The notes under the pieces: generated by a model
The model's input: only the letters and a program-made list of their open reading frames with translations
What the model was told of the DNA's origin: nothing
Database searches by the model: none
Assembly: GCF_988242995.1 (NCBI RefSeq)
Contig: NZ_OZ547043.1
Length of the DNA: 64,000 bases
Direction: 5' to 3' (one strand)
Made by a program: the position numbers and the translations under genes
Shown: positions 31,548 to 47,794 of the stretch, one piece after another
Numbering within the stretch: the stretch's first letter is position 1
Layout of the letters: every line of letters begins with the position of its first letter

Positions 31548-34500
31548 TTAACCGATCGTCATTAAACTGGCGTTACCGCCAGCGGCAGCGGTATTCACAC
31601 TCAGCGAACGCTCGATATACAGTCGTTCCAGCAGGATATTGCTTTCGCCACGGGCAAAACCCTGCACCGAAACAATTGCGCCATCCCGCGCGGCAACTGC
31701 TTCACACAATGCGCGAAGCTGATCCGAATCACCGTGGAAGATCACCGCATCAAACGGTTGAGCTGTTATATTTTCCGCTTTCGCCAGTTGAATACGTTCG
31801 CTGACTGCCGATGGCAATGCCTTCACTAACTGACGATGCAGCGCGTCATCCGGCCACAGCACCTGGCTGCCCACCGCCAGCACGGCGGCGAGCTGAGTCA
31901 GCGCATCCTGCTCATCATCCGCAATACACAACACGCGCTCGCGCGGCAGCAGCGTCCAGGTGTTGCGTTCACCCGTCGGCCCTGGCAGCAATCGTTGTGT
32001 TCCTGCCTGCGCCAGCTCGCCATATTGCGTACATAACGCCTGCAATTCTGGACGGTTTGCCGCCCATTCCCGCAGTGCATTTAGCGGCTGAGTCAATGCG
32101 GCTTTCAACTGCGCATCGACCGGATACTCTGCATCCTGACGCGCGAGCGTCACTGCCAGTGCACTTTCCGGGCGATTCGCCAGCAGACGGTAGAGATAGA
32201 GCGGACCGCCTGCTTTCGGCCCGGTGCCGGACAACCCTTCGCCGCCGAATGGCTGCACCCCGACCACTGCGCCCACCATATTACGGTTAACGTACAGGTT
32301 ACCGACATGGGCCGAGCCAGTGACCTGGGCGATGGTTTCATCAATGCGCGTATGGACGCCAAGCGTCAGACCATAACCGGAAGCGTTAATTTGCTCGATC
32401 AGCTCCGGCAGCTGGTTACGGTTATAACGCACCACATGCAGCACCGGACCAAAGACCTCTTTTTGCAATTCGGCAAAGTCATCCAGTTCAATCAGCGTCG
32501 GGGCGACAAAGGTGCCGCTTTGCCATTCACGGGCATCTTCACTGTTTTCCCGCACTGCCTGGAACACCGGACGGCCTTTACTACGCATAGTCTGAATATG
32601 ACGCTCAATATTGGCTTTCGCTTCGCTATCAATCACCGGACCGATATCGGTGGTCAGGCGACCAGGATTACCCATCCGGCATTCGGCCATTGCGCCGCGC
32701 AGCATTTTCAACGTGTGGTCGGCAATCTCATCTTGCAGGCACAGCACGCGCAGTGCCGAACAACGCTGGCCCGCACTGTCGAACGCCGAGGCCAGCACAT
32801 CTATTACTACTTGTTCGGTCAGGGCGGAGGAGTCGACAATCATCGCGTTCATACCGCCGGTTTCCGCGATGAGCGGAATAGGGCGACCCTGAGCGTCGAG
32901 GCGGCTGGCGATATTGCGTTGCAGTAACGTAGCGACTTCGGTTGAACCGGTAAACATCACCCCGCGCACGCGATCATCACCCGTCAGTTGCGCGCCCACG
33001 GTTTCCCCCCGACCTGGCAGCAATTGCACCACGCCTGGCGGTACACCCGCCTCCACCAAAATGGCAATCCCTTGCGCGGCAATCAGCGGCGTTTGTTCTG
33101 CCGGTTTTGCCAGTACGCTGTTACCTGCCGCCAGTGCGGCAGCGATCTGCCCGGTGAAAATCGCCAGCGGGAAGTTCCACGGACTGATACATACCACAGG
33201 CCCTAATGGACGGTGGGTTTCGTTAGCGAAATCATCCCGCACCTGTCCGGCGTAGTAGTGGAGAAAATCGACCGCTTCGCGCACTTCGGCAATGGCGTTA
33301 CTGAAGGTTTTTCCGGCCTCACGCACCAGAATACCAATCAGTTGCTGCATCTGGCTTTCCATCAGCACGGCAGCGCGATGCAAAATTGCCGCGCGTTCAG
33401 CCGGAGGCGTGGCAAACCAGATTGGTGCGTTATTAACCGCACTTTCCAGCGCCTGTTCTACTTCACTCGGCGTGGCTTCGCGCACATAGCCCACAATATC
33501 TTTCGGCTCTGCCGGGTTAATAACGGGCGACATCTCACCAGCCGCGACCGATTGTTCCAGCATTGGCAAGGCCTGCCATTTTTGCAGTGCACTATTGAGC
33601 AGGGCAGAAGAGAGCGATGCCAGACGGTGTTCGTTAGCGAGATCCAGCCCTGCCGAGTTGTCGCGCCCGTGACCGTAAAGATCGCGCGGCAGGGGAATTT
33701 TCGGATGCGGTAATCCAGTTTGCCCTTCCTGTTGCGCCAGTTTTTCTACAGCAGTGACCGGATCGGCGACCAGTTCATCCAGGGGCAAAGAGGTGTCAGC
33801 AATACGGTTAACAAACGAGGTGTTAGCACCGTTTTCCAGCAGGCGACGCACCAGATACGCCAGCAGCGTTTCATGGGTACCGACAGGAGCATAAATACGA
33901 CACGGACGGTTAAGTTTGCCGTCGGCAACTTTCCCGGTGACCTGCTCATACAGTGGCTCGCCCATACCGTGCAGGCACTGGAACTCGTACTGACCCGGGT
34001 AGTAGTTCTGACCCGCCAGTTGATAAATTGCCGCCAGCGTATGGGCGTTATGCGTTGCGAACTGCGGGTAGATTAGATTCGGCACCGCCAGCAGCTTTTT
34101 CGCACAGGCGAGATATGAAACGTCGGTATACACCTTGCGGGTATAAACCGGATAACCTTCAAGGCCGTCCATCTGCGCGCGCTTGATTTCACTATCCCAG
34201 TACGCGCCTTTCACCAGGCGAATCATCAGACGGCGACGGCTGCGGGTGGCGAGATCAATCAGGTAATCAATCACCAGTGGGCAGCGTTTTTGATAAGCCT
34301 GAATAACAAAACCGATGCCGTTCCAGCCTGCCAGTTCCGGCTCGAAACAGAGTTTTTCCAGCAGATCGAGGGAGATCTCCAGACGATCGGCCTCTTCGGC
34401 ATCGATGTTAATACCAATATCGTACTGACGCGCCAGCAGGGTGAGTGATTTCAGACGTGGGTAAAGCTCTTCCATTACCCGGTCATACTGGGCGCGGCTG

Positions 34501-35510
34501 TAACGCGGATGCAGCGCCGACAGCTTGATTGAAATGCCCGGACCTTCATAGATGCCACGACCATTGGACGCTTTACCAATGGCGTGAATCGCCTGCTGAT
34601 AGGAAACCATATACGCCTGTGCATCTGCGGCGGTCAGCGCGGCTTCGCCCAGCATATCGTAGGAGTAACGGAAACCTTTCTCTTCCAGCTTGCGGGCATT
34701 GGCTAACGCTTCCGCGATGGTTTCGCCAGTGACGAACTGCTCGCCCATCAGGCGCATCGCCATATCCACACCTTTGCGGATCAGCGGTTCACCGCTCTTA
34801 CCGATAATGCGGTTCAGCGAGCGGGAGAGGCTGGCTTCGTTATGGGTGGAAACCAGTTTGCCGGTAAACAGCAGCCCCCAGGTGGCGGCATTAACAAACA
34901 GGGACGGGCTACGACCAATGTGTGACTGCCAGTTACCGTTGCTGATTTTGTCGCGAATTAACGCATCACGGGTGGCTTTGTCGGGAATACGCAACAACGC
35001 TTCTGCCAGACACATCAGCGCCACGCCTTCCTGCGATGACAGCGAAAACTCCTGCAATAACCCCTGGACCATACCTGCGCGACCACTGGCATTTTTTTGA
35101 TTACGCAGTTTATCGGCCAGTTGATATGCCAGTTTATGCGCCTGTTCAGCAACTGGCTGCGGCAGGCGGGCTTGTTCCAGCAGCATAGAAACCGCTTCGG
35201 TTTCCGGGCGGCGATAGGCAGCGGTGATAGCTGCGCGGGAAACCGACTGGGGCAAAATTTGCTCGGCAAAGTCGAGGAATGGCTGGTGTGGTTCCTCTGC
35301 CGGAGTGGGTGCTTCATCGCTCTCATTGGCAGCGCCAGAAAGCAGCGCAGGTAGCTCCGGAAGAGTATCGCTGTTTTCCAGTTGTTCAAGATAAGAAAAA
35401 ATCGCCTGCTTAATTAACCAGTGTGGCGTGCGATCGATACGTGTCGCGGCAGACTTAATACGCTCACGCGTCGCGTCGTCCAGCTTAACCCCCATGGTGG
35501 TGGTTCCCAT
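31548..35510 (-). CDS. putA: bifunctional proline dehydrogenase / P5C dehydrogenase / repressor PutA
   Basis: 1320 aa from ATG at 35510 (MGTTTMGVKLDD), N-terminal RHH DNA-binding region. Confidence 0.95.
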   Translation of the reverse strand: MGTTTMGVKLDDATRERIKSAATRIDRTPHWLIKQAIFSYLEQLENSDTLPELPALLSGAANESDEAPTPAEEPHQPFLDFAEQILPQSVSRAAITAAYRRPETEAVSMLLEQARLPQPVAEQAHKLAYQLADKLRNQKNASGRAGMVQGLLQEFSLSSQEGVALMCLAEALLRIPDKATRDALIRDKISNGNWQSHIGRSPSLFVNAATWGLLFTGKLVSTHNEASLSRSLNRIIGKSGEPLIRKGVDMAMRLMGEQFVTGETIAEALANARKLEEKGFRYSYDMLGEAALTAADAQAYMVSYQQAIHAIGKASNGRGIYEGPGISIKLSALHPRYSRAQYDRVMEELYPRLKSLTLLARQYDIGINIDAEEADRLEISLDLLEKLCFEPELAGWNGIGFVIQAYQKRCPLVIDYLIDLATRSRRRLMIRLVKGAYWDSEIKRAQMDGLEGYPVYTRKVYTDVSYLACAKKLLAVPNLIYPQFATHNAHTLAAIYQLAGQNYYPGQYEFQCLHGMGEPLYEQVTGKVADGKLNRPCRIYAPVGTHETLLAYLVRRLLENGANTSFVNRIADTSLPLDELVADPVTAVEKLAQQEGQTGLPHPKIPLPRDLYGHGRDNSAGLDLANEHRLASLSSALLNSALQKWQALPMLEQSVAAGEMSPVINPAEPKDIVGYVREATPSEVEQALESAVNNAPIWFATPPAERAAILHRAAVLMESQMQQLIGILVREAGKTFSNAIAEVREAVDFLHYYAGQVRDDFANETHRPLGPVVCISPWNFPLAIFTGQIAAALAAGNSVLAKPAEQTPLIAAQGIAILVEAGVPPGVVQLLPGRGETVGAQLTGDDRVRGVMFTGSTEVATLLQRNIASRLDAQGRPIPLIAETGGMNAMIVDSSALTEQVVIDVLASAFDSAGQRCSALRVLCLQDEIADHTLKMLRGAMAECRMGNPGRLTTDIGPVIDSEAKANIERHIQTMRSKGRPVFQAVRENSEDAREWQSGTFVAPTLIELDDFAELQKEVFGPVLHVVRYNRNQLPELIEQINASGYGLTLGVHTRIDETIAQVTGSAHVGNLYVNRNMVGAVVGVQPFGGEGLSGTGPKAGGPLYLYRLLANRPESALAVTLARQDAEYPVDAQLKAALTQPLNALREWAANRPELQALCTQYGELAQAGTQRLLPGPTGERNTWTLLPRERVLCIADDEQDALTQLAAVLAVGSQVLWPDDALHRQLVKALPSAVSERIQLAKAENITAQPFDAVIFHGDSDQLRALCEAVAARDGAIVSVQGFARGESNILLERLYIERSLSVNTAAAGGNASLMTIG

Positions 35511-35534
35511 GCCATTACTCCTGTTGTTCTGAAA

Positions 35535-35745
35535 GGTGCAACTTAACGTTATCGTGAAATATCCATGATGTTGCAACTTTGTGCAACCATGTTAAATGTG
35601 ACCTGCGTAGCAAGCTTAAAAATGAATGAAATGTTAATAAAAGAAATCGATATGACAGGGATTAAAAAAATAACTCAGACTTTTTCTCTGCGGCAGTTAA
35701 CATTTTTGAAAGGTGCAACCGCAAAAAATGTGAGAGAGTGCAACC
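35535..35745. promoter_or_regulatory. put control region with five GTTGCA PutA operator motifs
   Basis: ggtgcaac 35535, gttgcaac 35570, gtgcaacc 35581, ggtgcaacc 35712, gtgcaacc 35738, all in divergent putA-putP intergenic DNA. Confidence 0.6.
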
Positions 35746-35932
35746 TGATGAAAAATAGTGTCGCTGAGCACTAAAATTTAATGTAAATGGTGTGTTAAAT
35801 CGATTGTGAATAACCAGCGCTTCCGGCAGGATACGGTCGCCCTGGTAAAACATAAACTCTGCTACCCCGTTCCGGTGGCAGATATAACGGCAAGTTTCGA
35901 CATTGCCGATAATAATTTTTTGGAGACTTTAG

Positions 35933-37441
<1,509 letters not shown>

Positions 37442-41275: not shown

Positions 41276-42340
41276 ATGGTAACGTCCTGTACTGGACATG
41301 TTTTAGATAATCAGCGCGCCACCACTCGCGGAGATTTCTCCTCCGGTAGCAACTTCGTCACTTTGTATTTTCAACCTCATCCTTTCTTTTCATGTGTTAC
41401 CGACGCCGTAAACGGTGCGCGTAGCCGTTTTTCGGCATTTTATCCAAAAGCAAACTATGGCTTACAAGGAAGCCAACCCTCTGATGTTCGTGCGCATAAT
41501 CGCGCTGCCAACGGCGCGTGTGATGAATACAAACAACTCAAGGTGCTCTCCATGGGAAGACAAAAAGCAGTGATCAAAGCTCGTCGCGAGGCAAAACGTG
41601 TGCTGAGACGGGATTCGCGCAGCCATAAGCAGCGTGAAGAAGAATCGGTCACCTCGCTTGTGCAGATGAGCGGCGTAGAAGCCATTGGTATGGCCCGCGA
41701 CAGTCGCGATACCTCGCCCATCCTCGCGCGAAATGAAGCGCAATTGCACTATCTGAAGGCTATTGAGAGTAAGCAGCTGATATTCGCCACGGGCGAAGCC
41801 GGGTGCGGAAAAACCTGGATCAGCGCAGCAAAAGCGGCAGAGGCCCTGATACATAAGGATGTCGACAGGATTATCGTCACCCGTCCAGTTCTGCAAGCCG
41901 ATGAAGATCTTGGCTTCTTACCTGGAGATATCGCAGAAAAGTTTGCTCCCTATTTTCGTCCGGTCTACGACGTGCTGGTCCGGCGCTTAGGGGCTTCCTT
42001 TATGCAGTACTGCCTGCGACCGGAAATAGGGAAGGTGGAAATTGCGCCGTTCGCCTATATGCGTGGACGTACCTTTGAAAATGCAGTCGTCATTCTTGAC
42101 GAGGCGCAGAATGTGACTGCCGCGCAAATGAAAATGTTTTTAACCCGCCTCGGGGAGAACGTGACGGTTATCGTCAACGGTGATATCACGCAATGCGATT
42201 TGCCTCGCGGCGTGCGCTCCGGATTAAGTGACGCGCTGGAACGTTTCGAAGAAGATGAAATGGTCGGGATCGTCCGATTCGGTAAAGAGGATTGCGTACG
42301 TTCGGCACTTTGCCAACGTACGCTACATGCATACAGTTAA
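41276..42340 (+). CDS. phoH: phosphate-starvation-inducible ATPase PhoH
   Basis: 354 aa, Walker A GEAGCGKT; translation may start at a downstream Met. Confidence 0.9.
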   Translation: MVTSCTGHVLDNQRATTRGDFSSGSNFVTLYFQPHPFFSCVTDAVNGARSRFSAFYPKANYGLQGSQPSDVRAHNRAANGACDEYKQLKVLSMGRQKAVIKARREAKRVLRRDSRSHKQREEESVTSLVQMSGVEAIGMARDSRDTSPILARNEAQLHYLKAIESKQLIFATGEAGCGKTWISAAKAAEALIHKDVDRIIVTRPVLQADEDLGFLPGDIAEKFAPYFRPVYDVLVRRLGASFMQYCLRPEIGKVEIAPFAYMRGRTFENAVVILDEAQNVTAAQMKMFLTRLGENVTVIVNGDITQCDLPRGVRSGLSDALERFEEDEMVGIVRFGKEDCVRSALCQRTLHAYS

Positions 42341-42357
42341 GTGTATTATCGGTACAG

Positions 42358-42388
42358 AGCCCGGGCGAACCGGGCTTTGTTTTATTTC
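42358..42388 (+). terminator. rho-independent terminator after phoH
   Basis: agcccgggcgaaccgggct stem followed by T-rich run. Confidence 0.7.
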
Positions 42389-42902
42389 ATTAACAGCAAA
42401 GACTTTCACTTCAGGTTAACGTTCAGGGGGGCGACTTTGAGCGTGTTGATAAGCTGAAATGAATTCTGGTTTAGATACTCTTACCAGGCATTTTTCGTCA
42501 TAGCACCCGACCAGTGTAATGCCGCCAGCGCGGAGAGTTTTTTGCCTATCTTTTTCCAGCCATTCAACCTGTACAGGAGGTCTGGTGCCAATTTTGCGTA
42601 TGAGGTTTAATCAGCAATGGGCCATAATTTGACTGACTGATTAACACCGAATATATTCTCCTGATTTTATTTTTTAGGGATAATATTAAAAATATAAGGT
42701 TAATCTTAATTAATTCTTCAGCTAATATTGTGTGTTGTTATTTTTTGTGGACGGCAAGCCGCAATGGCAAAATAGGTATGGTTGTAATAATCAAAACATG
42801 ATACTAACTATATATAGATCGTTGAATTGTTGGCATGTAACTCGCTACAGCGAGTAGCGTTAGTAATGAAATATAATCAACATGGATAGGTGAAGATTAA
42901 TT

Positions 42903-43589
42903 ATGAGCTTTATGGTTTTTGTAACTTGTTTGACAATTGCATTTGTCGCCGGTTTTGCTGTTGCCAGAAAATTGACACTCCGAAAAGTTGCCTCATCGGT
43001 AATCATCACTAGATCGCAACCAGTCCCTTCCTCTGCAACTTCCCCTGCGGCTAAGGCGTCGACAAGGAGCTATACACCGCAGAAAACCTATCGTGACTCT
43101 CGTTGGCAAGAACGAGATGAGTTGTTCCAGGGAATGGTTGCCGAAGGTATTTTATTGGAAGGAAAAGAGTGGTTAATTACGCGTTGTGAAAAAATTTATT
43201 TTGATAATCTGGAGAAATGGTTTGGACATTATTGTCATATCCATTGCCAGGTCTCTCTGGGGCGCTTGATCAACTTTCCAGAACAACCCGAGTTTAGCGA
43301 AGAAGAAAGAAAGCGTTTCTTTGCAATTTATAATGGAATGGCAATGGATTATGTTCTGGTTTCAAAGAAGAACAATAAAATAGTCTGTGTTATTGAGCTG
43401 GATGATCCGAGTCATGAAAGGGCAGATCGCATTATTCGTGACCGTTGGTTGAATACGATTATGACTATTGCACGGGTGCCTTTTGTACGAGCTTCTGTCA
43501 CTAAATTGGATGAAATCCCTCCGGTCTGGGATACCCGTGACAAAATTCGCCCATTAGCCGCGGCGACAAAGGGTGAACCGTTGCATTAA
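42903..43589 (+). CDS. membrane-anchored protein with DUF2726 / restriction-endonuclease-like C-terminal domain (accessory)
   Basis: 228 aa; N-terminal hydrophobic helix (FMVFVTCLTIAFVAGFAV); C-terminal DYVLVSKKNNKIVCVIELDDPSH resembles DUF2726; AT-rich 5' region. Confidence 0.7.
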   Translation: MSFMVFVTCLTIAFVAGFAVARKLTLRKVASSVIITRSQPVPSSATSPAAKASTRSYTPQKTYRDSRWQERDELFQGMVAEGILLEGKEWLITRCEKIYFDNLEKWFGHYCHIHCQVSLGRLINFPEQPEFSEEERKRFFAIYNGMAMDYVLVSKKNNKIVCVIELDDPSHERADRIIRDRWLNTIMTIARVPFVRASVTKLDEIPPVWDTRDKIRPLAAATKGEPLH

Positions 43590-43595
43590 CTAAGT

Positions 43596-43674
43596 ACCCC
43601 GGTCGGGGCTCCTCATCCCCCCGGTGTGTGCAATATACGAAAAAAAAGCCCGTACTTTCGTACGAGCTCTTCTT
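43596..43674. repeat. left copy of serX 3'-flank repeat (part A), interrupted by IS200
   Basis: 79 bp nearly identical to 44488-44565. Confidence 0.8.
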
Positions 43675-44385
43675 GTGCACAGAAAACCCCCAGCTAGGCT
43701 GGGGGTTCCGGAAAGCTTTCAGCTTTGAGCCAGTTATTAAAACCCCTTTTGATTTGTTAAAACACCTTGCGGTCTGGCAACTGCAAGTGTCAAACAAGAA
43801 ATCAAAAGGGGGTCCCAATGGGGGACGAAAAGAGCTTAGCGCACACCCGCTGGAACTGTAAATATCACATAGTTTTTGCGCCGAAATACCGAAGACTGGC
43901 GTTTTACGGAGAGAAGCGTAGGGCGATAGGCAGTATTTTGAGAAAGCTGTGTGAGTGGAAAAGCGTACGGATTCTGGAAGCAGAGTGCTGCGCAGATCAT
44001 ATCCATATGCTTGTGGAAATCCCACCCAAAATGAGCGTATCCGGCTTTATGGGATATCTGAAAGGGAAAAGCAGTCTGATGCTTTACGAGCAGTTTGGGG
44101 ATTTGAAATTCAAATACAGAAACAGGGAGTTCTGGTGCCGAGGGTACTATGTCGATACGGTGGGTAAGAACACGGCGAAGATACAGGACTACATAAAGCA
44201 CCAGCTTGAAGAGGATAAAATGGGAGAGCAGTTATCGATTCCCTATCCGGGCAGCCCGTTTACGGGCCGTAAGTAACGAAGTTGGATGCAAATGTCAGAT
44301 CGTGTGCGCCTGTTAGGGCGCGGCTGGTAACAGAGCCTTACAGGCGCATTTGAAAAACCTCCGGCTATGCCGGAGGATATTTATT
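43675..44385 (+). mobile_element. IS200-family insertion sequence (~711 bp, approximate ends)
   Basis: Left hairpin cccccagctaggctggggg, RBS-sequestering stem ccccttttgattt/aaatcaaaaggggg, tnpA, right hairpin cctccggctatgccggagg. Confidence 0.85.
43818..44276 (+). CDS. tnpA: IS200 transposase TnpA (HUH Y1 transposase)
   Basis: 152 aa from ATG 43818 (MGDEKSLAHTRWNCKYHIVFAPKYRR); HiH motif in ADHIHMLV, catalytic Tyr region GYYVDTVG. Confidence 0.9.
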   Translation: MGDEKSLAHTRWNCKYHIVFAPKYRRLAFYGEKRRAIGSILRKLCEWKSVRILEAECCADHIHMLVEIPPKMSVSGFMGYLKGKSSLMLYEQFGDLKFKYRNREFWCRGYYVDTVGKNTAKIQDYIKHQLEEDKMGEQLSIPYPGSPFTGRK

Positions 44386-44410
44386 TAAATATGGCGGTGA
44401 GGGGGGGATT
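44386..44410. repeat. left copy of serX 3' end repeat (part B): duplicate of last 19 nt of serX plus junction
   Basis: tttaaatatggcggtgagggggggatt vs tttaaagatggcggtgagggggggatt at 44564-44590. Confidence 0.8.
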
Positions 44411-44487
44411 GACTCGCTTCGCTCGCCCTGCGGGCAGCCCGCTCACTGCGTTCACGGTCTGTCCAACTGGCTGTCGCCAGTTGTCGA

Positions 44488-44590
44488 ACCCCGGTCGGGG
44501 CTTCTCATCCCCCGGTGTGTGCAATATACGAAAAAAAAGCCCGTACCTTCGTACGAGCTCTTCTTTAAAGATGGCGGTGAGGGGGGGATT
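44488..44590. repeat. right copy of ~104 bp direct repeat (serX 3' flank plus tRNA 3' end)
   Basis: Direct repeat of 43596-43674 + 44386-44410 with ~5 mismatches. Confidence 0.8.
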
Positions 44591-44659
44591 CGAACCCCCG
44601 ATACGTTGCCGTATACACACTTTCCAGGCGTGCTCCTTCAGCCACTCGGACACCTCACC
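44572..44659 (-). tRNA. serX: tRNA-Ser (anticodon GGA)
   Basis: 88 nt; minus strand reads GGTGAGGTGTCCGAGTGGCTGAAGGAGCACGCCTGGAAAGTGTG...GGGGGTTCGAATCCCCCCCTCACCGCCA with 7-bp acceptor stem, long variable arm, CCA encoded. Confidence 0.9.
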
Positions 44660-44853
44660 AAATTGTTGTTCCTGTCTTGCTGGAACGGGCGCTAATTTAG
44701 GGAAATCATGACCTGAGGTCAACAAACTTTTTTAAAAAATCGCGTGTTTATTCAAACTTCAATCAATATGCAGTTTTAATAAGCGAAATCTGCTTTTTTT
44801 GCCACCGACCACGGATTTGTTATGCTGGTGGCTTTTGTAGATCATAACGATAA

Positions 44854-45831
<978 letters not shown>

Positions 45832-46646: not shown

Positions 46647-47201
46647 ATGAACGAGTTTTCTATCCTCTGTCGTGTGCTGGGTTCGCTCTATTACCGCCAA
46701 CCACAAGATCCTTTACTGGTGCCGCTGTTTACCCTGATTCGTGAGGGGAAACTGGCTGCGAACTGGCCACTGGAGCAGGATGAGTTGCTGACACGTTTGC
46801 AGAAAAGCTGTGATATGACGCAAGTCTCTGCCGATTACAATGCGTTGTTTATCGGCGATGAATGTGCTGTGCCGCCATATCGTAGCGCATGGGTTGAGGG
46901 CGCGACGGAAGCGGAAGTGCGCGCTTTTCTTTCCGAACGGGGGATGCCATTAGCGGATACGCCAGCCGATCACATCGGCACATTGCTGCTCGCGGCTTCC
47001 TGGCTGGAAGATCAGTCAACGGAAGATGAGAGCGAAGCACTGGAAACACTGTTCAGTGAGTATCTGTTACCCTGGTGTGGTGCGTTCCTCGGCAAAGTGG
47101 AGGCTCATGCAACCACGCCTTTCTGGCGCACCATGGCACCGCTAACCCGCGATGCCATTAGTGCAATGTGGGACGAGCTGGAAGAAGATTCTGAAGAGTA
47201 A
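46647..47201 (+). CDS. ycdY: TorD-family chaperone YcdY
   Basis: 184 aa ORF after ycdX. Confidence 0.9.
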   Translation: MNEFSILCRVLGSLYYRQPQDPLLVPLFTLIREGKLAANWPLEQDELLTRLQKSCDMTQVSADYNALFIGDECAVPPYRSAWVEGATEAEVRAFLSERGMPLADTPADHIGTLLLAASWLEDQSTEDESEALETLFSEYLLPWCGAFLGKVEAHATTPFWRTMAPLTRDAISAMWDELEEDSEE

Positions 47202-47302
47202 ATGTGATCTGCATCACTCATAACTGCAACAGATAATTTGCCGTTGCATAAAATGTGTGCTCGATCTCATTCATGGCCGCGTTTTCTGCTATCATGCGCG
47301 GC

Positions 47303-47794
47303 ATGAACATACTTCTCTCTATTGCAATCACAACAGGCATTCTCTCCGGTATCTGGGGATGGGTGGCTGTTTCCCTGGGCTTACTAAGCTGGGCGGGCTT
47401 CCTGGGCTGTACGGCCTACTTTGCCTGCCCGCAAGGTGGGCTGAAAGGGCTGGCGATCTCCGCTGCAACCCTGCTTAGTGGCGTGGTGTGGGCGATGGTC
47501 ATTATTTACGGTAGTGCATTGGCACCACATCTGGAAATTCTCGGTTATGTCATAACCGGTATTGTCGCGTTTCTGATGTGTATTCAGGCCAAACAGCTGC
47601 TGCTTTCATTTGTTCCGGGAACGTTTATAGGCGCATGCGCGACGTTTGCCGGGCAGGGTGACTGGAAACTGGTGTTACCTTCGCTGGCGCTCGGGTTGAT
47701 ATTTGGTTACGCAATGAAAAACAGCGGCCTGTGGCTGGCGGCGCGTAGTACGAAGATCGCTCACCGTGAGCAGCAAATCAAAAATAAAGCGTGA
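47303..47794 (+). CDS. ycdZ: inner membrane protein YcdZ
   Basis: 163 aa from ATG 47303 (MNILLSIAITTG). Confidence 0.85.
   Translation: MNILLSIAITTGILSGIWGWVAVSLGLLSWAGFLGCTAYFACPQGGLKGLAISAATLLSGVVWAMVIIYGSALAPHLEILGYVITGIVAFLMCIQAKQLLLSFVPGTFIGACATFAGQGDWKLVLPSLALGLIFGYAMKNSGLWLAARSTKIAHREQQIKNKA

What the first reader, a model, noticed from the sequence alone, without database searches (positions are those of the whole stretch)
35511..35932. Five GTTGCA PutA operator motifs in the put control region
The divergent putA-putP intergenic DNA contains five copies of GTTGCA or its complement, two of them back-to-back at 35570-35588. This is the expected arrangement for autorepression by the PutA N-terminal ribbon-helix-helix domain.
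Basis: partly seen in the sequence, partly recalled or inferred. Interest (0 to 1): 0.18.

Follow-up and report, generated by a model that had tools for sequence, protein, structure and literature searches.

The report
Known PutA operators in E. coli
The five GTTGCA motifs between the divergent putA and putP genes are real, far above chance, and identical to the well-studied E. coli K-12 sites where the PutA enzyme-repressor binds to shut off proline-utilisation genes, so this is a correct re-discovery of textbook regulation.

Summary
Observation confirmed and interpretation supported, but it is already known. The window is E. coli chromosome. The 422-bp putA–putP spacer (35511-35932) differs from K-12 MG1655 at three bases, none in a motif. 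GTTGCA or its complement occurs at five loci: 35537, 35570-35577 (palindrome GTTGCAAC, so six pattern hits), 35582, 35714 and 35739. About 0.33 are expected, and 0 of 20,000 dinucleotide shuffles reach five. PutA residues 1-70 are identical to the crystallised E. coli ribbon-helix-helix domain (PDB 2RBF, 2GPE).

New detail from 78 Enterobacteriaceae loci:
- Four sites, in two pairs with fixed 12-bp and 25-bp spacing, are invariant.
- The fifth, nearest the putA ATG, is confined to the E. coli/E. whittamii group.
- Other genera carry a fifth site elsewhere. One of these survives here as a one-mismatch relic, GTAGCA, at 35607.

Relative to published start sites, the back-to-back pair sits on the putA -35 hexamer and spacer, and the fifth site at +12 to +17. 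The same 21-bp block is also a published ArcA ChIP-seq/motif site.

Seen in passing: a covariation-supported RNA hairpin in the putP leader (35859-35881) with no Rfam match.

The parts
31548..35510 (-). putA CDS (1320 aa + stop): trifunctional repressor / proline dehydrogenase / P5C dehydrogenase
   Evidence: ORF listing; Pfam PutA_1st RHH, PRODH, Pro_dh-DNA_bdg, Pro_dh, Aldedh; RefSeq annotation of the matching locus
35370..35510 (-). Coding sequence of the PutA N-terminal ribbon-helix-helix DNA-binding domain (residues 1-47)
   Evidence: Residues 1-52 identical to PDB 2GPE/2RBF/2AY0 and 1-70 identical to 4O8A; beta-strand GVKLD invariant in 78 species
35537..35542 (-). Operator 5 (GTTGCA on the minus strand; context GTTGCACCTTTCA), +12 to +17 of the putA start site; found only in the E. 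coli/E. whittamii group
   Evidence: present only in E. coli, two unnamed Escherichia sp. and E. whittamii among 78 loci; start site inferred
35570..35577 (.). Operator 4, palindromic GTTGCAAC (matches on both strands), in the putA promoter spacer (-24 to -17)
   Evidence: invariant in all 78 loci
35582..35587 (-). Operator 3 (GGTTGCAC on the minus strand), coincides with the putA -35-like hexamer TTGCAC (-34 to -29)
   Evidence: exact in 77 of 78 loci; promoter geometry is my inference, consistent
35714..35719 (-). Operator 2 (context TTTGCGGTTGCACCTTTCAA on the minus strand; from my memory this is the 21-bp duplex crystallised in PDB 2RBF), -82 to -77 of putP P1
   Evidence: GGTGCAACC invariant in 78 loci
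35739..35744 (-). Operator 1 (AGGTTGCACT on the minus strand), -57 to -52 of putP P1
   Evidence: AGTGCAACCT invariant in 78 loci
35607..35612 (+). One-mismatch relic GTAGCA; exact GTTGCA at the aligned position in E. albertii, Salmonella and Kluyvera
35558..35586 (-). Inferred putA sigma-70 promoter: -35 TTGCAC (35581-35586), 17-nt spacer, -10 GATATT (35558-35563); start site about 35553
   Evidence: AATATC block at least 90% conserved; the ArcA site 35568-35598 is stated to lie at -45 to -15 of the mapped putA start site; hexamer assignment is my inference
35568..35598 (+). Published ArcA binding site 'putA' (ATGTTGCAACTTTGTGCAACCATGTTAAATG), overlapping operators 4 and 3
   Evidence: Park et al. 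2013 Tables S1-S4, S6 (PMC3798270), coordinates converted
35518..35524 (-). putA Shine-Dalgarno (ACAGGAG on the minus strand)
   Evidence: conserved block
35933..37441 (+). putP CDS, Na+/proline symporter, the second repressed gene

Best explanation
This is the put control region of E. coli. The five GTTGCA motifs are the operators bound by the ribbon-helix-helix domain at the dimer interface of PutA.

When proline is scarce, oxidised PutA is cytoplasmic and occupies these sites. The pair at 35570-35587 covers the spacer and the -35 hexamer of the putA promoter. The site at 35537 lies just downstream of the start site. Together these three block RNA polymerase at putA. The two sites at 35714 and 35739 lie 52-82 bp upstream of putP promoter P1 and lower putP expression. 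How they do so (interference with upstream promoters or activators, or cooperation with the putA-proximal sites) is not resolved here.

When proline reduces the FAD cofactor, PutA moves to the membrane to work as an enzyme, the operators are vacated, and both genes are expressed.

Shown here: the motifs, their enrichment, their identity to K-12, their conservation, and the identity of the DNA-binding domain. From the literature: binding, repression and the redox switch. Inferred: promoter overlap and the mode of putP repression.
For: Motif positions and statistics.
Gene identities.
PutA residues 1-70 identical to PDB 4O8A, and residues 1-52 to 2GPE and the DNA complex 2RBF.
Spacer matches K-12 at 419 of 422 bases with all motifs intact.
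In 78 Enterobacteriaceae loci the divergent putA-putP layout is kept. GTTGCA density is 12.5 per kb in the spacer against 0.47 per kb in the flanks. Four sites are invariant with fixed intra-pair spacing of 12 and 25 bp, and they form the longest conserved blocks of the spacer.
RHH beta-strand GVKLD is invariant.
Literature: PutA binds only the putA/putP spacer in genomic SELEX (PMC8249747). PutA represses putA and putP and switches to the membrane on proline reduction of FAD (PMC5293562; PMC5879082).
Start-site positions come from Park et al. 2013 Table S6.
From my own knowledge, not retrievable here: Zhou et al. 2008 J Mol Biol 381:174 defined exactly five GTTGCA operators. Three were needed for putA repression and two for putP. 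They crystallised PutA52 on operator 2.
Against: No binding experiment exists for this strain, and none can be run here. The primary operator-mapping paper is not in the held library, so the operator numbering and the 3+2 functional split rest on my memory. Operator 5 is not conserved outside the E. coli/E. whittamii group, so its role may be minor or recent. Operators 1 and 2 do not overlap the putP P1 core promoter, so simple occlusion does not explain putP repression. The O4-O3 block is also a reported ArcA site, so its invariance cannot be credited to PutA alone.
Confidence: 0.95

Rival explanations
1. The back-to-back pair (35568-35598) is primarily an ArcA-P direct-repeat site for anaerobic repression of putA, and its resemblance to PutA operators is secondary.
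For: Park et al. 2013 list an ArcA ChIP-seq peak and a three-repeat site ATGTTGCAACTTTGTGCAACCATGTTAAATG at -45 to -15 of putA. They report 30.8-fold putA derepression in an arcA mutant. TGTTAA-type repeats occur four times in the spacer and all four are conserved.
Against: The ArcA box score is weak (10.2 bits; the middle repeat scores -0.1 bits). The same TGCAAC core recurs at three further places that are not ArcA sites. Two of those are invariant with a different spacing. From memory, PutA binding to these sites has been shown directly. The two functions are compatible, so this adds to the PutA reading rather than replacing it.
Confidence: 0.04
2. The motif cluster is a chance or compositional effect of AT-rich intergenic DNA.
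For: The hexamer is not enriched window-wide (55 observed, 55.5 expected). Another span holds four copies.
Against: None of 20,000 dinucleotide shuffles of the region reaches five. Density is 26-fold above the flanks across 78 species, with four positions invariant. The four-copy span lies in coding sequence.
Confidence: 0.005
3. The conserved hexamers are kept only as core promoter elements (for example the -35 TTGCAC of putA), not as repressor sites.
For: Operator 3 coincides with a -35-like hexamer placed 17 nt from a conserved -10-like GATATT.
Against: This cannot explain operators 1, 2, 4 and 5, which are not promoter hexamers, nor the invariance of flanking bases (GGTGCAACC, AGTGCAACCT).
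Confidence: 0.005

Closest known systems
E. coli K-12 put control DNA with five PutA operators (Zhou et al. 2008, J Mol Biol 381:174; PDB 2RBF)
   Same: Same organism and same locus. The spacer matches at 419 of 422 bases, all five GTTGCA motifs are identical in sequence and position, and the RHH domain is identical.
   Different: Three SNPs: 35530 T for A, which makes the O5 flank match the O2 flank over 13 nt; 35603 C for A; and 35862 C for T. None lies inside a motif.
Salmonella enterica put control region (Maloy laboratory; PutA autorepression and membrane switching)
   Same: Divergent putA-putP, a spacer of about 420 bp, and the four core operators identical in sequence and spacing (L015, L019).
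   Different: Salmonella lacks the site next to the putA ATG. Its fifth GTTGCA lies on the other strand about 25 bp beyond operator 3, where E. coli has GTAGCA.
Pseudomonas putida PutA RHH domain (PpPutA45; PDB 2JXG/2JXH/2JXI)
   Same: Homologous RHH domain (E=1e-19 to the window's PutA N-terminus). From memory it recognises the same GTTGCA core.
   Different: Different family of bacteria. Its control region was not examined here.
Other RHH repressors with tandem sub-sites (Arc, MetJ, CopG)
   Same: A beta-sheet from a dimer reads a short core in the major groove, and repeated sites occur within a promoter. CopG-family chains are weak sequence hits.
   Different: From the literature, PutA's RHH is fused to a 1,320-residue enzyme, with one RHH dimer per PutA dimer. 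Release comes from relocation to the membrane rather than from an allosteric loss of DNA affinity (PMC5293562).

Membership tests
PutA (RHH) operator set of a put control region | GTTGCA core present in multiple copies within the putA-putP spacer, above chance | tested here: met
   5 loci / 6 hits against about 0.33 expected; 0 of 20,000 shuffles reach 5
PutA (RHH) operator set of a put control region | Divergently transcribed putA and putP flank the sites | tested here: met
   same layout in 78 of 78 complete loci
PutA (RHH) operator set of a put control region | The PutA encoded next to the sites is trifunctional, i.e. carries the N-terminal RHH domain | tested here: met
   Pfam PF21775 (76 bits, cutoff 27); residues 1-52 identical to PDB 2GPE/2RBF
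PutA (RHH) operator set of a put control region | Sequence identity with the experimentally characterised K-12 operators | tested here: met
   Alignment with MG1655: all five motifs and their immediate flanks identical except one base 7 nt from O5
PutA (RHH) operator set of a put control region | Evolutionary conservation of the sites together with the DNA-reading beta-strand | tested here: met
   O1-O4 invariant, with O3 exact in 77 of 78 loci; O5 only in the E. coli/E. whittamii group; GVKLD invariant
PutA (RHH) operator set of a put control region | Direct PutA binding and proline-relieved repression at these sites | not testable with these tools
   Literature only: genomic SELEX peak confined to this spacer (PMC8249747); gel shifts on 420-bp put control DNA (PMC5293562); site-level mapping (Zhou 2008) recalled from memory because the paper is not held
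ArcA box (two or more direct repeats at 11-bp spacing) | Match to the ArcA repeat matrix plus an in vivo ChIP peak | tested here: inconclusive
   Not recomputed here. Park et al. 2013 report a ChIP-seq peak and a 10.2-bit box at window 35568-35598, with repeats scoring 7, -0.1 and 10.3 bits. They footprinted the putP site but not the putA site.
Rfam RF02780 PutA 5' UTR thermometer | Covariance-model score at or above the gathering threshold (51 bits) | tested here: not met
   14.9 bits, E=9.5 at 35481-35544 on the minus strand

The most novel reading that the evidence does not exclude
The invariant 21-bp block ATGTTGCAACTTTGTGCAACC (35568-35588) is a composite operator read by two unrelated repressors. 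PutA's RHH reports proline and flavin redox state, and ArcA-P reports the quinone pool. Respiratory state and substrate availability would then converge on the same bases of the putA promoter. That double constraint would explain why the block and its spacing never vary across Enterobacteriaceae while the fifth PutA site drifts between lineages. The spacer also looks like an old duplication of a module of about 33 bp (GTGCAACC-N5-AAATGTGA-N5/6-site) repeated 132 bp apart.
Probability: 0.4. Interest if true: 0.3.

Novelty: already known. Interest (0 to 1): 0.08.

Why it matters
For the scan, this is a positive control. A reader working from raw sequence correctly recognised a textbook autoregulatory region, and the tools confirm it. 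Biologically it adds nothing new about PutA.

The modest added value is comparative:
- The conserved core is four operators in two fixed-spacing pairs.
- The fifth operator is lineage-specific.
- The putA-proximal pair coincides with a published ArcA site.

The by-product most worth a later look is the covariation-supported hairpin in the putP leader.

Tried and rejected
1. I tried to read the primary operator paper and related reviews (PMC2665032, PMC2664619, PMC3715380, PMC2242416, PMC2666929, PMC1390768, PMC5650515). None is held. Full-text searches for GTTGCA with PutA or 'proline utilization' found nothing relevant. The five-operator definition and numbering are therefore cited from memory.

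2. The Rfam scan of 35300-36100 at E<=10 gave only three sub-threshold hits, including PutA_thermometer at 14.9 bits against a 51-bit cutoff. I rejected them.

3. The generic sigma-70 scan found one weak promoter-like site (35748-35777), no more than shuffles give. I did not use it. Promoter placement instead relies on conserved hexamers and the start-site-relative coordinates in Park et al. 2013.

4. I asked whether the second-densest GTTGCA cluster (47108-47464, four hits) could be another PutA target. It lies inside the ycdY/ycdZ coding sequence, and genomic SELEX reports no second PutA target, so I treat it as chance.

5. I considered CRP-like readings of the two AAATGTGA elements (35594-35601 and 35726-35733). 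The second half-sites match poorly (3 of 5 and 2 of 5), and no data were retrieved, so this is left open.

6. RNAalifold on the whole putP leader recovered only the 35859-35881 hairpin. Other apparent hairpins were not supported at the alignment quality available.

Full report
**What is there.** The window is E. coli chromosome. An 801-bp query around the finding matches 5,420 of 5,426 complete E. coli genomes at 95-100% identity, annotated putA | putP. On the minus strand the putA ATG is the complement of 35508-35510, and the ORF runs to 31548. putP starts at 35933 on the plus strand. Pfam assigns PutA an N-terminal RHH domain (PF21775), proline dehydrogenase and aldehyde dehydrogenase domains, and assigns PutP to the sodium:solute symporter family. 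PutA residues 1-70 are identical to PDB 4O8A, and residues 1-52 to 2GPE and to 2RBF, the RHH-DNA complex.

**The observation.** GTTGCA or its complement matches at 35537(-), 35570(+), 35572(-), 35582(-), 35714(-) and 35739(-). The hits at 35570 and 35572 are the two strands of one palindromic octamer, GTTGCAAC. The 'back-to-back' pair is 35570-35577 plus 35582-35587.

Across the whole 64 kb the hexamer is not enriched (55 hits, 55.5 expected). The cluster is:
- The rest of the window gives 0.33 expected hits per 422 bp, so Poisson P(>=5)=2.3e-5 and P(>=6)=1.2e-6.
- None of 20,000 dinucleotide-preserving shuffles of the spacer reaches five.
- No other 422-bp span holds more than four. That runner-up span (47108-47464) is ycdY/ycdZ coding sequence.
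- GTTGCA shares the top hexamer count in the spacer with the A/T run AAAAAT. The extended 8-mer GTGCAACC occurs three times in the spacer and once in the remaining 63.6 kb.

**Match to characterised sites.** The spacer aligns to K-12 MG1655 without gaps and differs at three bases (35530, 35603, 35862), none inside a motif. K-12 is the strain in which the operators were defined. I could not retrieve that paper (Zhou et al. 2008, J Mol Biol 381:174).

From memory, it reports five operators each containing GTTGCA. Three were critical for putA repression and two for putP. It also reports a crystal structure of PutA52 on operator 2, a 21-bp duplex that I recall as TTTGCGGTTGCACCTTTCAAA. The minus-strand context of the 35714 site reads TTTGCGGTTGCACCTTTCAA. 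That fixes the numbering as O1=35739, O2=35714, O3=35582, O4=35570-35577 and O5=35537. It also fits the split into three putA-proximal sites and two distal ones.

Papers that are held support the general picture:
- Genomic SELEX finds PutA bound only to the putA/putP spacer (PMC8249747).
- PutA and an RHH chimaera shift 420-bp put control DNA with a Kd of about 45-58 nM. The RHH domain mediates dimerisation and sits between the two catalytic lobes. Proline reduction of FAD drives membrane binding (PMC5293562).

**Comparative test.** One scan of representative genomes with PutA residues 1-200 returned 80 Enterobacteriaceae loci. In 78 of them putP lies divergently upstream, with spacers of 356-556 bp.
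- Every one of the 78 carries four or five GTTGCA loci.
- Density is 12.5 per kb in spacers against 0.47 per kb in the flanking 5 kb.
- Four sites are essentially invariant in sequence, orientation and intra-pair spacing: O4/O3 12 bp start to start, and O2/O1 25 bp. The two pairs lie 132-136 bp apart.
- In a MAFFT alignment these sites are the longest conserved blocks: ATGTTGCAACTTTGTGCAACC (35568-35588), GGTGCAACC (35712-35720) and AGTGCAACCT (35737-35746). Mean column identity over the spacer is 66%.
- O5 is conserved in only 10-30% of sequences. It is present in E. coli, two unnamed Escherichia species and E. whittamii, and absent from E. albertii outward.
- Other genera have a fifth site elsewhere. 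The commonest position is about 25 bp beyond O3 on the other strand (E. albertii, Salmonella, Kluyvera). There E. coli reads GTAGCA (35607-35612), a one-mismatch relic.
- The DNA-reading beta-strand of the RHH domain (GVKLD, residues 7-11) is invariant in all 78.

**Geometry and mechanism.** Park et al. 2013 (PMC3798270) place their ArcA site, which converts to window 35568-35598, at -45 to -15 of the mapped putA start site. They place the footprinted putP site, which begins at window 35781, at -15 to +9 of putP P1 (coordinates converted through). That puts the putA start site near 35553 and putP P1 near 35796.
- O3 then lies at -34 to -29 and coincides with a -35-like TTGCAC.
- O4 lies at -24 to -17, in the 17-nt spacer.
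- A conserved GATATT (35558-35563) serves as the -10.
- O5 lies at +12 to +17.
- Occupancy of these three sites would exclude or block RNA polymerase at putA. The hexamer assignment is my inference.
- O1 and O2 lie at -57 to -52 and -82 to -77 of P1, outside its core. putP repression must therefore work another way: on upstream promoters, on an activator, or jointly with the distal sites. I could not resolve which.

**A complication worth recording.** The same paper lists the O4-O3 block as an ArcA ChIP-seq peak with a three-repeat ArcA site. The box scores 10.2 bits and the repeats score 7, -0.1 and 10.3 bits. putA is derepressed 30.8-fold in an arcA mutant. The invariance of this block may therefore reflect two repressors. 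This does not displace the PutA reading, because the same core recurs at sites that are not ArcA boxes.

**Verdict.** The feature is already known in this very organism. Interest is low.

**Other things seen.**
- A hairpin in the putP leader has a stem at 35859-35866 pairing with 35874-35881 and a loop NCGUUCC. In 46 distinct sequences 91% of cells pair, against 29-46% when the partner is slid, and six of eight pairs show compensatory changes. RNAalifold finds the same helix. A published Term-seq 3' end maps 7 nt downstream, at K-12 1079260 = window 35888. Rfam has nothing there.
- The small ORF ymdG lies just after O1. It is 8 codons in RefSeq K-12 (35748-35774) and 40 codons as first reported (35652-35774). 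PGAP's 69-residue 'hypothetical protein' (35565-35774) is the same frame extended across O4-O1.
- In this strain pgaABCD-dgcT is missing between phoH and ghrA. A DUF2726 gene and an IS200C copy take its place.

Noticed in passing
window 35859-35881 (stem 35859-35866 / 35874-35881, loop 35867-35873): Conserved hairpin in the putP 5' leader with an invariant loop (N)CGUUCC and covarying stem. In 46 distinct Enterobacteriaceae sequences 91% of cells pair, against 29-46% in slid controls, and 6 of 8 pairs show compensatory changes. RNAalifold finds the same helix. A published Term-seq 3' end (K-12 1079260 = window 35888) lies 7 nt downstream. No Rfam family matches. The window/K-12 SNP at 35862 (C/T) keeps the pair (C-G versus U-G). 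Function unknown; possibly a leader-derived stable RNA end or a regulatory hairpin.
   Followed up: partly
window 35568-35598 and 35781-35813: Two published ArcA sites (Park et al. 2013 supplementary tables). The putP P1 site ATGTAAATGGTGTGTTAAATCGATTGTGAATAA was footprinted on repeats 1 and 2. The putA site ATGTTGCAACTTTGTGCAACCATGTTAAATG overlaps PutA operators 4 and 3. TGTTAA/TTAACA occurs four times in the spacer (35590, 35632, 35697, 35793), and all four copies are at least 90% conserved.
   Followed up: partly
window 35748-35774 (also 35652-35774 and 35565-35774), + strand: Small ORF ymdG immediately downstream of operator 1. It is annotated as 8 codons (MKNSVAEH) in RefSeq K-12 and was originally reported as a 40-residue tagged protein. 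PGAP calls a 69-residue 'hypothetical protein' in the same frame that runs across operators 4 to 1 and is probably spurious. The region is poorly conserved outside Escherichia.
   Followed up: partly
window 35581-35601 vs 35713-35733; 35527-35542 vs 35704-35719: Internal repeats suggest the spacer grew by duplication. GTGCAACC-N5-AAATGTGA occurs twice, 132 bp apart (after O3 and after O2), each followed about 25 bp from the operator by another GTTGCA-like site. The O5 and O2 flanks share TGAAAGGTGCAAC. The AAATGTGA elements resemble CRP half-sites, but the second halves match poorly.
   Followed up: partly
window 35818-35843: Strongly conserved block GCTTCCGGCAGGATACGGTCGCC in the putP leader. 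A short CCG/CGG stem would present GCAGGAUA, a GGA-containing loop of the kind CsrA binds. TTCCGG recurs in the loop region of the downstream hairpin. Not tested.
   Followed up: no
window 35888-35908: A further possible hairpin, CGGCAA...TTGCCG, just upstream of the putP Shine-Dalgarno. Other genera show what look like compensatory changes (for example CGACAA...TTGTCG in Klebsiella/Raoultella and GGCAC...GTGCC in Salmonella). RNAalifold on the full-leader alignment did not recover it.
   Followed up: no
window 35481-35544, - strand: A published Term-seq 3' end lies 28 nt inside putA (K-12 1078854 = window 35482). A far sub-threshold Rfam hit to PutA_thermometer (RF02780, 14.9 bits against a 51-bit cutoff) covers the putA ribosome-binding region. 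Probably nothing, but the putA leader and start region may be structured.
   Followed up: no
window 42340-44854: Between phoH and ghrA this strain lacks pgaABCD and dgcT, which are present in K-12-like and many other genomes. It carries a DUF2726 gene, an IS200C transposase and tRNA-Ser instead. Only 2 of 5,426 complete E. coli genomes match the whole 2.6-kb arrangement, at 95.9% identity.
   Followed up: partly
window 47108-47464: The second-densest GTTGCA cluster in the window (four hits in 357 bp) lies within the ycdY/ycdZ coding sequence. Taken as chance.
   Followed up: yes
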